A stretch of 64,000 nucleotides of DNA, taken from a virus. Location: positions 125,676-189,675 of the IMG/VR virus record IMGVR_UViG_3300021594_000641; one strand, given 5' to 3'. Below are positions 2,831-44,963 of this stretch, one piece after another; position 1 is the first letter of the stretch, and each line of letters opens with the position of its first letter. Below the pieces are notes generated by a model. It was not told the DNA's origin. It searched no databases and was given only the letters and a program-made list of their open reading frames with translations. The translations under genes were made by a program, and so were the position numbers.

Positions 2831-6727
<3,897 letters not shown>

Positions 6728-9546: not shown

Positions 9547-10156
9547 TTACAGGCCGAATCTGCCGCGAAGGGCGTTGTAGTTTTGTAGGATTTGATCTGA
9601 TGTGAGTATTGTGTTGTAGATCAACAAAAAAGAAATCTGACCGTTAGCTCTTTCGTTATTTTGACCGCCGATATTGAAACCGTTAGGACCGCTTACTCCA
9701 AGAGAATTCTGAACAACAAAAGTATTGTCGTACCACATAGACCATGTGTCGGTAGAAGTGTCGCCAGTACCCGTCCAAATATGCCAACCAGACCCAGACA
9801 AGGTGTACTGGTTGTTTACCCAACCTTCGGCATAGTAGTTTGGTCCGCTTCCGCCGTGATGACCAAGCAGCCAATTGTTGTTTAAGGCAGTCAGCATTCT
9901 GCCGCCAGATATTATTCTGGTTGCAGACATGATCGTGTACTTGCTGGTGGAATAACTGCTAGTGATGGCGCTCGTTGTTCCATTTGTTTCAAACACGCCA
10001 CCGTTGGCACTGCTCCAAGTAGGAGAGTTAACCAAAGTGAAGTTATTACCGTTACCAGTAAGGTCCAGCCAAGACGTACCTGAACCTGGGTAACTTTTTA
10101 CGTTGGCAGCGTCCAGGTAAACCTGTAGCCCACTTGTAACTATGCTGGGGTTATAG

Positions 10157-42114: not shown

Positions 42115-43410
42115 TTATTCCTCTTCTACAACGTTTGAGAAACCGCCAGGCATACTAATCTCACCAGTTTCAGGATTAGTAGACAAAGCTTCTTGGATCT
42201 GATCTTTGTATGGAACGCCCATTTCAAACGGTCTTCTGGGGCATACTCCAAATACCTTGTCTAGTTCTTTGACTAGCTCAGGAGATTCAGAAATAGCCTT
42301 GCCTACTTCGTGCCAAGATCCTTTGGATATACCAAGAACCGGACAGTCAGCAGTCCTTCGCGTCTTGTCTATGTTTTCAATAGAGCAAGCGTTGTGGACA
42401 GCCTTTCTTTGCCAAGCTTCTTGGAAAGAATCAAACAAGGCCACCGTAGCGTCGTGCCAATCCCACATAGAAGTTTGAACCAGGTTTTCATCTTTGGTCC
42501 AAAGAAGCTTTACTTCTATGTACCTCCTGTCTCCAGCTGAAGACAGGCTGTTCTTGTCGCTGTGGATTCTGATCAGTCTTCCTTGCTCACTCTTTGTGTG
42601 AATGTCCGCTTTTCTAGCCATCCTAAGAATGAACGTAGAAGTAAATCCAAGACTAGCTCCTCCAGGAACTCTTCTGATAATAGGCTTGCCTGGAGAATGC
42701 TCTTCTTTCATATGGTTAATACCTATGAAAGAAATGGGCCAGTACTGCATCTTTGGGAAGAATACTTTTACCCACATGTTCAAGTTCTTGGCGATGTTAC
42801 TAAAAGTAGGAGTAGCATAGCCGTTCTTCCACGTATCGTCTGTCTCACTTTTTGTAGTGGCTGCTGTGATGCTATCGACTCCTAGAGCCATAGGCATCTC
42901 CATACCTCCCCTACAATCGTAGTGAGCCTCCGCAGCTTTTACGTACTCACTGCACATCTTTTGCCAAGATTCTACAGTCAAACAAGAGTGGCTTTTAAAA
43001 GGCAAAGGAGCCTTTATAAAAGATTCCCTGAAATCTGGAGAATCCTTAGCCTCTACTTGAATATGACCAAAAAGCCCGTGAGGCATACCTGGGTCAAACT
43101 TAACTATCTTGCTGCCGTTGTATATGTGCCATCTATACATTTCATAAAGAAGAGCTGTTTTACAACTTTCAGGTATGCCTATAATTTCTGTCATTCTTGA
43201 GTACGGAAAAACGCTGTTGCAGAATAAGTACCTCAGACTGATCGCGTCTAGAGGTGCTCCAATGATAACCTTTGTGCTATCGTCACAAAGATAATCATTG
43301 CCCGGGCCATTCTCGACTTGCCTCATATTCAGCACTTGCTGAAAAAAGGAGTCTGGGCCTGTCTTGACTGCAGGCCTGGCGTCTTCAACAACAGCTTTCT
43401 TCCTACCCAT
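42115..43410 (-). CDS. RecA/UvsX-like recombinase (start revised to ATG 43410, MGRKKAV)
   Basis: PYSRMTEIIGIPESCKT (variant Walker A), LGVDSITA, FIGINH, VPGGASLGFTSTFILRM; CAGGAG RBS; track residues upstream of 43410 lie over hairpins. Confidence 0.8.
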   Translation of the reverse strand: MGRKKAVVEDARPAVKTGPDSFFQQVLNMRQVENGPGNDYLCDDSTKVIIGAPLDAISLRYLFCNSVFPYSRMTEIIGIPESCKTALLYEMYRWHIYNGSKIVKFDPGMPHGLFGHIQVEAKDSPDFRESFIKAPLPFKSHSCLTVESWQKMCSEYVKAAEAHYDCRGGMEMPMALGVDSITAATTKSETDDTWKNGYATPTFSNIAKNLNMWVKVFFPKMQYWPISFIGINHMKEEHSPGKPIIRRVPGGASLGFTSTFILRMARKADIHTKSEQGRLIRIHSDKNSLSSAGDRRYIEVKLLWTKDENLVQTSMWDWHDATVALFDSFQEAWQRKAVHNACSIENIDKTRRTADCPVLGISKGSWHEVGKAISESPELVKELDKVFGVCPRRPFEMGVPYKDQIQEALSTNPETGEISMPGGFSNVVEEE

Positions 43411-43556
43411 GACATCAATCTCCTGATTAAAAACTAAACAAACAAAGAAATAAAAAAGTGACAAAAAATGCGCGTACGTAAAAATACGCGCATTTAAAAC
43501 AAACGAACGTGCAACAGGAGATTGATAAAACAAACGCCTGTTGCACGTTTGCTTTA
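43411..43556 (-). promoter_or_regulatory. Structured ssb-recA intergenic element: 13-bp hairpin (43506-43549), terminator-like hairpin (43466-43495) and a 12-nt anti-SD
   Basis: AACGTGCAACAGG/CCTGTTGCACGTT; AAATGCGCGTA/TACGCGCATTT followed by T runs; 43515-43526 is the reverse complement of 43414-43425 (the recA RBS). Confidence 0.75.
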
Positions 43557-44900
43557 TCAATCTTCTGAAGGATTAGGTAACCGTGACTTTACAGCCTTAC
43601 GGGCGTTCTGGATGTTTTGCCAAACTTTGTTATTAGCATCATTAGTAGCTTCTTCAGGAACAAACTCGCCAGACGTGGGAGGACTAATAGCCTCACTAGA
43701 GATTGTCTTGGCTGGAGTAAGAGAAAAAGACTTTAAAGCAGGCTTGGCAAAAGCAGGCGCTGGAGGCGCTTCAGCCACGACAGCAGCAGGCACAGCCACA
43801 TCAGCCCAAGAAGGTTCAGGAGCTGAAATAGACGTAACTTTAGTCTTACCCAGCTGCTGCAACCCTTCTGCCCTGATCTTTGGATTCAGGTACTGCCCGT
43901 AACGGTCATCCAGAGCATACACCAGCAAAGAAGGGTAGCCTGAATAAAGGTCTTGAACAAGCAAAACCTGCTCCTCATTGCTCATGATGTTTACACAAGA
44001 AGACCAGTCTTTGATCTTCTGTGTAACAGCTTCAGCAACGGAAGACAAATCTGCGGAGAAACCTTTGTACTCCTTTTCAAGGAACACATCAAAACCTTTG
44101 ATAGTCTTATCGTTGCGACCGGCTGCCTCCAGCATTCCTGGAGTAAACTGGTTTGTACGCTTAAGACCTGCACGGCGAGGGTCTTGACCTTCCGTGAAGA
44201 TAGTTACGTAGCTGCCTTCGTCTAGAGCTATGGGGTCGCCACATACGAAGTGAGCAGACACATTACTGCTGTCTCCGCGATAATCAGTCCTTTCGTCCAT
44301 GGCGCTTCTCAGGTTCTTATACACTGAGGGCTTTAAGAGCATGAACTGAGCACTGTCGTCTGGAGCCAAACCCTTAGGAGTTTGGAAGTCCTCACCCTTG
44401 TAGGACATCAACAGACACTGCACTAGCCAGCAAAGCTTGGGCTTTGCCGGAATAGCCGGAGAGTTGTAAGGCCCAGAAGGCAGAAGCAAACTAGCCCAAC
44501 CCACAGAAAAAGGAAGACCTTTTTTGGTTCCCTCATCAGCAGCGCTGCGAATCATCATGAGAGGATTGCTGCTAATGTCATAGAACCTATCATACGGGTC
44601 GTGCATAACCCAGGTTCTAGCCCTTTCACTCTTTGGGTCTTTGACAGACTCTGCTACTTGAATAGGGAAAAACCACTGACCAAATTCATTCATGTTGGTC
44701 GGCAGTCGCCACGGATCAAGCATAGTTGGATTGTCAGGATTAACGCCTGGAAGAATCCTGATCACAGTAGACTGATTCATTGGCGGGCTGTACAGCTTTC
44801 CAGCACCCGGCTTAAGAATCATGTTGAGATACTTTCCGTCACCTCCAGAAAGATTGGCGCTGACAGAATTAACAGAGATACGGCGAGAGCTACCTTGCAT
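43557..44900 (-). CDS. T4 gp32-like single-stranded DNA-binding protein (start revised to MQGSSRR)
   Basis: STVIRILPG motif; GAAAGGA RBS; position next to recA and the polymerase. Confidence 0.65.
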   Translation of the reverse strand: MQGSSRRISVNSVSANLSGGDGKYLNMILKPGAGKLYSPPMNQSTVIRILPGVNPDNPTMLDPWRLPTNMNEFGQWFFPIQVAESVKDPKSERARTWVMHDPYDRFYDISSNPLMMIRSAADEGTKKGLPFSVGWASLLLPSGPYNSPAIPAKPKLCWLVQCLLMSYKGEDFQTPKGLAPDDSAQFMLLKPSVYKNLRSAMDERTDYRGDSSNVSAHFVCGDPIALDEGSYVTIFTEGQDPRRAGLKRTNQFTPGMLEAAGRNDKTIKGFDVFLEKEYKGFSADLSSVAEAVTQKIKDWSSCVNIMSNEEQVLLVQDLYSGYPSLLVYALDDRYGQYLNPKIRAEGLQQLGKTKVTSISAPEPSWADVAVPAAVVAEAPPAPAFAKPALKSFSLTPAKTISSEAISPPTSGEFVPEEATNDANNKVWQNIQNARKAVKSRLPNPSED

Positions 44901-44963
44901 GACAGTCCTTTCAAACTTGAAATTAAAAACGCCAAACGGCAAATGCCTAGCGGCATCGATATA

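What the first reader, a model, noticed from the sequence alone, without database searches (positions are those of the whole stretch)
43411..43556. RNA switch between ssb and recA: perfect anti-SD stored in an alternative hairpin
Seen on the mRNA strand: 8 nt after the ssb stop, hairpin 1 (AACGUGCAACAGG / CCUGUUGCACGUU, 18-nt loop), then a terminator-like hairpin with U-runs, then the recA RBS CAGGAGAUUGAU. The loop and 3' arm of hairpin 1 contain AUCAAUCUCCUG, an exact 12-nt complement of that RBS (plus one flanking G-U pair). Eight of these nt are exposed in the loop and four are locked in the stem, so the two pairings compete. Inference: recA translation is controlled by ribosome occupancy at the ssb stop, by SSB or CsrA binding, or in trans by the terminated ssb 3'UTR acting as antisense RNA. 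This would link recombinase dose to SSB status.
Basis: partly seen in the sequence, partly recalled or inferred. Interest (0 to 1): 0.72.

Follow-up and report, generated by a model that had tools for sequence, protein, structure and literature searches.

The report
Three-way RNA fold before phage recombinase
The spacer between a phage's single-strand-DNA-binding gene and its recombinase gene holds a terminator and two mutually exclusive hairpins that share an exact 12-base complement of the recombinase ribosome-binding site. This may let translation of the first gene damp the second, but it is found in only one phage lineage and no function has been shown.

Summary
These are the 13-bp hairpin H1 with an 18-nt loop, a terminator hairpin H2 with a U6 run, the recombinase SD 12-mer, and its exact complement in H1's loop and 3' arm. 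The gene labels hold: the upstream protein has a T4 gp32 SSB fold and the downstream one is a UvsX/RecA-like recombinase.

It forms a 22-bp hairpin, H0, that excludes H1 and buries the anti-SD. H0 dominates the ribosome-free fold (0.91). SD masking is predicted at 1-3%, and becomes favourable only while a terminating ribosome melts H0 and the base of H1.

The complementarity is the top outlier among 170 gene starts in this genome (z = -4). It is absent from about 35 related junctions, which share only one terminator hairpin. All near-identical isolates carry the same spacer, so there is no covariation to test.

Best reading (about 0.38): a lineage-specific, translation-sensitive anti-SD that damps recombinase translation on read-through SSB transcripts. 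A by-product of local duplication with no function is almost as likely (0.33).

The parts
43557..44900 (-). gp32-type single-stranded-DNA-binding protein gene, 447 aa from the first ATG at 44900. Stop TGA at 43559-43557, then TAA.
   Evidence: No Pfam or PHROG hit. An AF2 model built from 12 syntenic homologues matches T4 and RB69 gp32: Foldseek E 1.3e-4, probability 1.0; VIA Z 8.8 and 8.4 against 4.5 for the next hit.
43546..43567 (-). H0 5' arm, segment A. It begins with CAGAAGAUUGAU, the third and near-identical copy of the SD 12-mer, and covers the last 8 nt of the SSB ORF, the stop codon and 11 nt beyond it.
43515..43536 (-). H0 3' arm, segment B. It consists of the word CGUUUGUUUU followed by the anti-SD AUCAAUCUCCUG (43526-43515).
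   Evidence: H0 is -25.2 kcal/mol, with ensemble probability 0.91 in full-length ribosome-free RNA.
43537..43549 (-). H1 5' arm, AACGUGCAACAGG. Nine of its bases form the loop of H0.
43506..43518 (-). H1 3' arm, CCUGUUGCACGUU. Its first 4 nt are the last 4 nt of the anti-SD.
   Evidence: 13 perfect pairs, -19.5 kcal/mol. An extended form of 17 pairs is -22.7. Probability is about 1.0 when segment A is blocked or absent.
43466..43495 (-). H2, an intrinsic-terminator-like hairpin with a GC-rich core. A U6 run lies at 43468-43463; its first three U sit in the A-U extension of the stem.
   Evidence: -16.2 kcal/mol. It is formed in every fold. It is the positional equivalent of the single hairpin found in about 35 related junctions.
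43426..43461 (-). U-rich leader with little predicted structure, between the terminator and the SD.
   Evidence: No sigma-70-like promoter on this strand.
43414..43425 (-). Segment C, CAGGAGAUUGAU. It carries the recombinase SD (GGAG at 43423-43420) and most of the spacer before the start codon.
   Evidence: Exact 12-nt complement of 43526-43515.
42115..43410 (-). UvsX/RecA-like recombinase gene, 431 aa, ATG at 43410.
   Evidence: phrog_97, E 9.3e-12. The N-terminus M-[AG]-[KR]-[KR]-K is conserved in 26 homologues, and a GxxxxCKT P-loop-like motif and a VDS motif are present.

Best explanation
The spacer has two layers.

The conserved layer is H2, an intrinsic-terminator-type hairpin after the gp32-like SSB gene. 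It marks the end of the abundant SSB message and lets some transcription read through into the recombinase gene.

The lineage-specific layer is a three-way competition for one strand, B (43536-43515), which contains an exact anti-SD.
1. On RNA whose SSB stop region is free of ribosomes, B pairs with segment A across the stop codon (hairpin H0). The anti-SD is buried, and the recombinase SD is as open as its weak local structure allows.
2. A ribosome finishing the SSB ORF must unwind A. B then goes into H1, which leaves 8 anti-SD bases in an 18-nt loop.
3. While the terminating ribosome also melts the first few pairs of H1, B can pair with the recombinase SD (12 pairs plus one G-U). This helix stacks on the remaining 9 bp of H1 as an H-type pseudoknot, with H2 looped out.

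The predicted result is negative coupling: the more often the SSB ORF is translated to its end, the more often the recombinase RBS on the same read-through RNA is masked. This would hold recombinase well below SSB and release it when SSB translation falls.

Shown: the sequence elements, their energies and mutual exclusivity, the gene identities, and the statistical outlier status. Inferred: that read-through RNA is the recombinase message, that the pseudoknot forms, and that translation changes as a result.
For: - The elements and their energies: H0 -25.2, H1 -19.5 (extended form -22.7), B:C duplex -18.4 to -19.7, pseudoknot estimate -21.7 kcal/mol.
- State depends on ribosome position. With no ribosome, H0 is 0.91. 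With A blocked, H1 is about 1.0. With a footprint reaching 43547-43545, the net free energy of SD masking moves from +0.5 to -3.2 kcal/mol.
- The recombinase SD is the strongest outlier of 170 gene starts for complementarity to its upstream sequence, z = -4.0, with 0 of 300 shuffles as strong.
- C resembles A and B only over the 12-13 nt that pair, with no flank homology of the kind a larger duplication would leave.
- H0 overlaps the stop codon. In about 35 relatives the hairpin starts 8-25 nt after the stop, clear of a terminating ribosome.
- In this genome and its relatives the hairpin's T-run is typically 10-35 nt from the next SD, and no sigma-70 promoter fits here. Read-through RNA, which carries B and C in cis, is therefore the likely recombinase message.
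- Precedent: the T4 e, soc, 49 and I-TevI RBSs are hidden in helices on longer read-through transcripts (PMC3014915, section 29).
Against: - No conservation: about 35 non-redundant related junctions show no enrichment for SD complementarity. z ranges from -2.4 to +2.7, and the single -2.4 is expected by chance.
- All near-identical isolates have the same spacer, so there is no covariation.
- Equilibrium masking is only 1-3% unless a ribosome sits on the stop codon. The favourable window of a few kcal/mol lies within the error of the energy model.
- The pseudoknot energy is a rough Dirks-Pierce-style sum made by hand, not a computed ensemble.
- A strong terminator lies between B and C, so most transcripts may never contain both.
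- The spacer is full of short repeated words: X three times, Y three times, and L with its complement. This suggests local copying, which could have produced C without selection.
- No RNA evidence is usable: two low-depth metatranscriptome contigs stop inside the recombinase ORF.
Confidence: 0.38

Rival explanations
1. The SD match has no regulatory output. H0, H1 and H2 are simply a heavily structured 3' end of the SSB message, acting as tandem terminators or a barrier to 3' exonucleases. The 12-nt match to the recombinase SD would be a by-product of the short local duplications that built this spacer, or of chance helped by SD-like words in hairpin stems.
For: - The only conserved feature in about 35 relatives is one terminator-type hairpin.
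- The spacer consists of reused short words: X three times, Y three times, and L with its complement.
- Other spacers in this genome contain duplicated hairpins, at genome positions 9839-10071 and 3579-3927. Another terminator stem contains GCAGGAGAG.
- Long-gap 12-nt inverted repeats are near chance frequency across the genome.
- Predicted SD masking at equilibrium is 1-3%.
Against: - The match covers exactly the SD and its spacer, and is the top outlier of 170 genes.
- Given the hairpins, the chance of a 12-nt exact match between a 22-nt SD region and a 60-nt hairpin region is about 1e-4 (my estimate from 4^-12 times the number of placements).
- A plain terminator or stabiliser would not be expected to overlap the stop codon, and none of the relatives' hairpins does.
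Confidence: 0.33
2. The anti-SD acts in trans. The SSB message ends at H2, or is cut near its stop codon. This leaves an RNA of about 95 nt (H1 plus H2 plus a U tail) that shows 8 anti-SD bases in the H1 loop. It pairs with the recombinase RBS on other transcripts, in the manner of a 3'UTR-derived sRNA.
For: - RNA starting after the stop folds as H1 (about 1.0) plus H2, with the seed in an 18-nt loop followed by a terminator hairpin and U tail.
- The intermolecular duplex is -18.4 to -19.7 kcal/mol.
- In T4, an RNase E site lies next to the gene 32 stop codon (PMC3014915, section 24).
Against: - Opening the anti-SD out of H1 costs about 14.7 kcal/mol, so net pairing is unfavourable at about +2.
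- The loop-only 8-bp contact is weak, -7.0 kcal/mol.
- In unprocessed RNA, H0 buries the seed.
- There are no data on RNA ends, and the element is not conserved.
Confidence: 0.1
3. The region is a protein operator. The gp32-like SSB would nucleate on the structured region and spread along the 36-nt U-rich leader over the recombinase RBS, as T4 gp32 does on its own leader. The repeats would then matter as structure, not as an anti-SD.
For: - The upstream protein has the gp32 fold.
- A possible pseudoknot is followed by a long U-rich, weakly structured leader that includes the RBS.
- The T4 gene 32 operator is a pseudoknot plus an unstructured A/U-rich tract overlapping the RBS (PMC3014915, section 24; PMC535899).
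Against: - There is no sequence or structural similarity to the T4 or RB69 operators, and the T4 operator sits upstream of gene 32 itself.
- A/U-rich leaders are generic, and the relatives have them without the extra hairpins.
- This model does not explain the exact 12-nt complementarity.
Confidence: 0.07
4. The element acts at the DNA level. The direct and inverted 12- and 22-bp repeats next to an AT-rich tract would be binding sites for a replication or recombination protein, or a cruciform, within the replication module.
For: - Three copies of a 12-bp word and three of an 11-bp word lie within 150 bp, next to a T-rich tract and between replication genes.
Against: - There is no GC-skew turn at the site.
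- The words occur nowhere else in the 190-kb genome.
- The repeats map exactly onto RNA-level landmarks (stop codon, SD), which a DNA site would not need.
- The repeats are absent from relatives.
Confidence: 0.05

Closest known systems
RBS-sequestering structures of T4 genes e (lysozyme), soc, 49 and I-TevI (PMC3014915, section 29)
   Same: The SD/start region of a phage gene can pair with an upstream complementary segment carried only by longer read-through transcripts, which keeps those transcripts poorly translated.
   Different: In T4 the helix is a local hairpin, and a late promoter inside it produces translatable short transcripts. Here the anti-SD lies 89 nt upstream, beyond a terminator hairpin. 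No internal promoter was found. The anti-SD is also held in two competing hairpins, one of which spans the upstream stop codon.
T4/RB69 gene 32 autogenous translational operator (PMC3014915, section 24; PMC535899)
   Same: It involves a gp32-type SSB, a possible coaxially stacked pseudoknot, and a long A/U-rich unstructured tract that includes an RBS.
   Different: The T4 operator lies upstream of gene 32 and works by protein binding. Here the element lies downstream of the SSB gene, in front of the recombinase, and its striking feature is RNA-RNA complementarity to the SD. The two share no sequence similarity.
MS2 coat-replicase long-range interaction
   Same: A long-range helix between an upstream cistron and the downstream start region makes downstream initiation depend on ribosomes in the upstream ORF.
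   Different: In MS2, upstream translation opens the mask, giving positive coupling. Here upstream translation should free the anti-SD, giving negative coupling, and a decoy copy of the SD word sits at the stop codon.
IS10 fold-back inhibition of read-through transcripts (from my own knowledge; the literature search did not return the primary description)
   Same: Transcripts entering from outside carry a complement of the RBS and are translationally silent.
   Different: IS10 has neither a competing hairpin tied to an upstream stop codon nor an intervening terminator.
Leader-peptide transcription attenuators such as trp (from my own knowledge)
   Same: They have overlapping, mutually exclusive hairpins, and the choice between them depends on where a ribosome sits.
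   Different: In an attenuator the terminator is one of the competing hairpins. Here H2 shares no bases with H0 or H1, so the output cannot be termination.

Membership tests
Intrinsic (Rho-independent) terminator (H2) | GC-rich stem with a short loop, followed at once by a U tract | tested here: met
   12-bp stem with a GCGCG core, 6-nt loop, -16.2 kcal/mol, U6 at 43468-43463. The simple consensus scan did not list it. I think this is because its maximal stem absorbs three U of the run, but I did not check that explanation.
Intrinsic (Rho-independent) terminator (H2) | Transcripts end in the U tract | not testable with these tools
   Only two low-depth metatranscriptome contigs were available, and contigs cannot show RNA ends.
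T4 gene e-type RBS-sequestering structure | The SD and/or AUG is paired in a stable helix on the long transcript | tested here: inconclusive
   A 12+1 bp helix is possible (-18.4 to -19.7 kcal/mol). Predicted occupancy is 0-3% without a ribosome, and 0.3-0.99 with a terminating ribosome on the base of H1.
T4 gene e-type RBS-sequestering structure | A promoter between the 5' arm and the RBS makes a short, translatable transcript | tested here: inconclusive
   No sigma-70-like site on the - strand between 43515 and 43426. The phage's own promoters are unknown.
Leader-peptide transcription attenuator | The terminator hairpin shares bases with an alternative anti-terminator hairpin | tested here: not met
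   H2 (43495-43466) shares no bases with H0 or H1 (43567-43506) and forms in every scenario.
Any Rfam family | Score at or above the family's gathering threshold | tested here: not met
   The best hits were trpB motif (31.4 against 59 bits), mir-556 (28 against 84) and L20 leader (23 against 58.7). All are generic hairpin look-alikes.
3'UTR-derived base-pairing sRNA | An accessible seed, plus a terminator hairpin with a U tail | tested here: met
   RNA starting after the stop folds as H1, with 8 seed bases in the loop, followed by H2 and the U run.
3'UTR-derived base-pairing sRNA | It accumulates as a separate stable RNA | not testable with these tools
   No raw RNA reads cover the region.
T4 gp32-type SSB (upstream gene) | gp32 core fold | tested here: met
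   Foldseek: 1gpc, 8gme_A and 2a1k, E 1e-4 to 1e-3, probability 1.0. VIA: Z 8.8 and 8.4, covering 198-220 of 210-235 residues, with the next hit at 4.5. The model's mean pLDDT is only 60.8, with the core at 70-90.
T4 gp32-type SSB (upstream gene) | Zn-binding His/Cys ligands of gp32 | not tested
   I did not examine these residues in alignment A3.
RecA/UvsX recombinase (downstream gene) | Profile match and ATPase-core motifs | tested here: met
   phrog_97 UvsX-like, E 9.3e-12. The most distant homologue carries Pfam RecA PF00154. An invariant G-x4-C-K-T motif, with Cys where the P-loop normally has its second Gly, and a V-D-S motif are present. No direct Pfam hit.

The most novel reading that the evidence does not exclude
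This would be a termination-triggered pseudoknot switch. Each ribosome that finishes the gp32-like SSB ORF strips a decoy copy of the recombinase SD word off the anti-SD. The anti-SD then clamps the real recombinase RBS across a looped-out terminator. Recombinase translation would be inversely tied to SSB translation and would be released when SSB synthesis shuts down. That is negative translational coupling, setting the SSB-to-recombinase ratio through three copies of one 12-nt word.
Probability: 0.3. Interest if true: 0.65.

Novelty: new variant of a known kind. Interest (0 to 1): 0.4.

Why it matters
SSB and recombinase compete for the same single-stranded DNA, so their ratio decides whether presynaptic filaments form. 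If the three-way fold works as proposed, it would be a compact RNA device, needing no protein factor, that sets this ratio by reading how often the SSB ORF is translated to its end. Its sign, negative coupling, is opposite to the textbook MS2 case. It would also be easy to reuse in synthetic operons. If it has no function, it is a useful warning: an exact 12-nt match to an SD can arise in spacers built from reused short words.

Tried and rejected
I could not fetch the contigs of the closest protein relatives or of the 89%-identical fragment P0032.
- Megablast of 3 kb and tblastn of the recombinase against 50,697 phage records gave no match.
- Single-protein scans of the viral and metagenome contigs found no relative. 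Only the alignment-based scans worked.
- The 481-aa database versions of the recombinase translate the spacer. All are identical to the window, so they give no variation.
- Sequencing runs: two raw-read freshwater DNA runs held no reads of this stretch. Two RNA runs gave one short contig each, inside the recombinase ORF. They provide no variants, no RNA ends and no conclusion.
- Rfam: nothing near a gathering score.
- Attenuator model: rejected, because H2 shares no bases with H0 or H1.
- Replication origin: no GC-skew turn, and the words are unique to this site.
- Dispersed repeat or MITE: rejected, as there are no other copies in the genome.
- A coding reading of the spacer: the frame is open from 43560, but it was rejected because 26 homologues start at the MxKKK that corresponds to ATG 43410.
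- CsrA: no specific support. The only GGA motifs are the SD itself and one in codons 3-4, and the host is unknown.
- Nested-only folding cannot represent the pseudoknot. I replaced it with a hand-made energy sum and an accessibility calculation; both are rough.
- Earlier notes of this scan contain nothing on this spacer, by place, by sequence or by words.

Full report
**Setting.** The window is the last 64 kb of a 189,675-bp viral record estimated at 91% complete. A crude ORF map puts 179 of 188 genes on the - strand. The phage appears in freshwater and lake metagenomes, and also in runs labelled 'fungus metagenome', across 14 studies. No record in the deposited phage collection matches it, by DNA or by the recombinase protein. 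The finding lies in the replication module. On the - strand the gene order is a family-A DNA polymerase with UDG and exonuclease domains, a dCTP deaminase, the gene called 'ssb', the 146-nt spacer, and then the gene called 'recA'.

**Observation.**
- the SSB stop at 43559-43557;
- H1, 13 perfect pairs (43549-43537 with 43518-43506) and an 18-nt loop;
- H2 (43495-43466) with a U6 run;
- the SD word CAGGAGAUUGAU at 43425-43414, and ATG at 43410;
- its exact complement at 43526-43515, with 8 bases in the H1 loop and 4 in the stem, plus one flanking G-U pair.

The whole region folds far better than shuffled sequence, z = -6.0.

**Gene identities.** Pfam recognises neither flanking protein.
- Downstream protein: it matches PHROG 97, UvsX-like recombinase, at E 9.3e-12. 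It has about 28 homologues at 37-52% identity that share an M-[AG]-[KR]-[KR]-K N-terminus, which fixes ATG 43410 as the start. They also share RecA-like G-x4-C-K-T and V-D-S motifs.
- Upstream protein: no sequence-level hit, but it is conserved in synteny. A model built from 12 syntenic homologues matches the T4 and RB69 gp32 cores in two independent structural searches: Foldseek E 1.3e-4 with probability 1.0, and VIA Z 8.8 and 8.4 against 4.5 for the next hit.

The 'ssb' and 'recA' labels therefore hold, as a gp32-type SSB and a UvsX-type recombinase.

A third copy of the SD word, CAGAAGAUUGAU, lies at 43567-43556, across the SSB stop codon. Together with the next 10 nt it is the 5' arm of a second hairpin, H0. 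H0 pairs 43567-43546 with 43536-43515 over 22 positions, with one A-C mismatch, one G-U pair and a 9-nt loop. H0 and H1 share bases and cannot coexist. The anti-SD strand B therefore has three possible partners: A at the stop codon, the H1 arm, and C at the recombinase SD. H0 is the most stable at -25.2 kcal/mol. H1 is -19.5 (extended form -22.7), and B:C closed as a long-range helix is -15.8.

**Thermodynamics.** In nested folding of the full RNA, H0 has probability 0.91, H1 0.09 and B:C 0.00. With A blocked or removed, H1 is about 1.0. With a footprint reaching 43545, a shortened H1 is 0.87 and B:C 0.13.

Nested folding cannot describe H1 shortened to 9 bp together with B:C. That combination is an H-type pseudoknot with loops of 14, 0 and 80 nt, and H2 sits inside the last loop. 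A hand-made Dirks-Pierce-style sum puts it at about -21.7 kcal/mol.

An accessibility calculation, which tolerates that topology, gives a net pairing free energy of:
- +2.8 kcal/mol with no ribosome;
- +2.1 with A covered;
- +0.5 with the footprint to 43547;
- -3.2 with the footprint to 43545.

SD masking is thus predicted to be rare, except while a terminating ribosome holds A and the base of H1 open. These differences are within the error of the method.

**Is it chance?**
- The 12-mer at one mismatch or fewer occurs 4 times in the window against 0.22 expected, and three of those are in this spacer.
- Among 170 SD-bearing gene starts in the genome, the recombinase is the strongest outlier for complementarity between its SD region and the 170 nt upstream. 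Its z is -4.0, the next is -3.2, and the distribution has sd 1.0.
- Against this, exact inverted repeats of 12 nt or more number 31 against about 2 expected. Most are tight hairpins, and long-gap ones like B/C are not clearly enriched.
- The words are unique to this locus.
- C resembles A and B only over the 12-13 nt that pair, with no flank homology.

**Comparative evidence.** Near-identical isolates are common, but their spacers are identical. This could be read from database versions of the recombinase that translate the spacer. Apart from one 89%-identical C-terminal fragment whose contig does not reach the spacer, the next relatives are at 52% protein identity or less.

I recovered 63 related loci. 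Gene order is kept: a protein of about 430-530 aa, a spacer of 55-119 nt, then the recombinase. About 35 non-redundant junctions each carry one perfect hairpin of 11-20 bp with a short loop. It starts 8-25 nt after the stop and is followed by a U-run and an A/U-rich leader. None shows enrichment for SD complementarity. The single z = -2.4 case, L049, is expected by chance among that many tests.

The conserved element is therefore the terminator-type hairpin, of which H2 is the local equivalent. H0, H1 and the anti-SD are specific to this lineage.

**Other checks.**
- No Rfam family comes near its threshold.
- There is no sigma-70-like promoter between B and the SD.
- There is no GC-skew turn.
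- Metatranscriptome data amount to two short low-depth contigs inside the recombinase ORF, which show nothing about RNA ends.

**Interpretation.** The reading I favour, at about 0.38, is a translation-sensitive anti-SD. Ribosomes finishing the SSB ORF remove the decoy A from B, and B then transiently masks the recombinase RBS on read-through RNA. This would be negative coupling.

It explains three things: why a hairpin overlaps the stop codon here and nowhere among the relatives, why the same 12-nt word occurs at the stop codon and at the SD, and why the complement of that word is shared by two exclusive hairpins.

The closest documented precedents are the T4 e, soc, 49 and I-TevI structures, which silence read-through transcripts (PMC3014915, section 29). 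The present case differs in three ways: the pairing is long-range, a terminator intervenes, and there is a decoy at the stop codon.

Almost as likely, at 0.33, the SD match has no function. The spacer is built from reused short words, and other spacers of this genome carry duplicated hairpins.

Three minor rivals remain: a trans-acting 3'UTR fragment (0.10), an SSB operator on the U-rich leader in the style of T4 gene 32 (0.07), and a DNA-level site (0.05).

**Verdict.** If the element is functional, it is a new variant of a known kind of RBS-masking control. It occurs in a single lineage of an uncultured phage, so interest is moderate. The reporter experiment listed under next steps would settle the question.

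Noticed in passing
window 43411-43560 (- strand): The recombinase reading frame stays open through the whole spacer. Public gene calls for this same protein exist as 431-, 449- and 481-aa versions. The 481-aa one starts at TTG 43560 and translates both hairpins and the terminator. Homologues show that the 431-aa version is correct.
   Followed up: yes
window 42115-43410 (- strand), residues 78-85: The P-loop of this recombinase family reads G-x4-C-K-T. A Cys, invariant in 27 sequences, stands where RecA and UvsX have the second glycine of the Walker A motif.
   Followed up: no
window 44901-44963 (- strand): The 63-nt leader of the gp32-like SSB gene has a hairpin with a U-run, then an A/U-rich tract (UUUUUAAUUUCAAGUUUGAAAGGA) running into the start codon. 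It loosely recalls the A/U-rich operator of T4 gene 32. I did not examine it further.
   Followed up: no
L049:~1900-2003: In a relative at 29% identity, 11 nt just after the SSB stop codon are predicted to pair with the recombinase SD region, enclosing the terminator hairpin (z = -2.4). It is the only related junction with any hint of SD masking. Among about 35 tests it is compatible with chance.
   Followed up: partly
window 43178-43404: Two lake metatranscriptome runs each hold one short contig (43178-43404 and 43209-43399). Both end 6-11 nt inside the recombinase ORF, and neither run covers the spacer or the SSB 3' end. Depth is only 2.6-3.6, and contigs cannot define RNA ends.
   Followed up: no
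genome C1:9839-10071 and C1:3579-3927 (outside the window): Other spacers of this phage contain duplicated or very long perfect inverted repeats: an 18-bp hairpin present twice about 100 nt apart, and a 31-nt-arm palindrome with nested repeats. Local copying of hairpin sequence evidently occurs in this genome.
   Followed up: no
L006-L015, L037, L038: 15-30 nt upstream of the recombinase ATG: Several relatives share an ACATATA-like word between the terminator hairpin and the SD. It may be a phage promoter or processing motif. The window does not have it.
   Followed up: no
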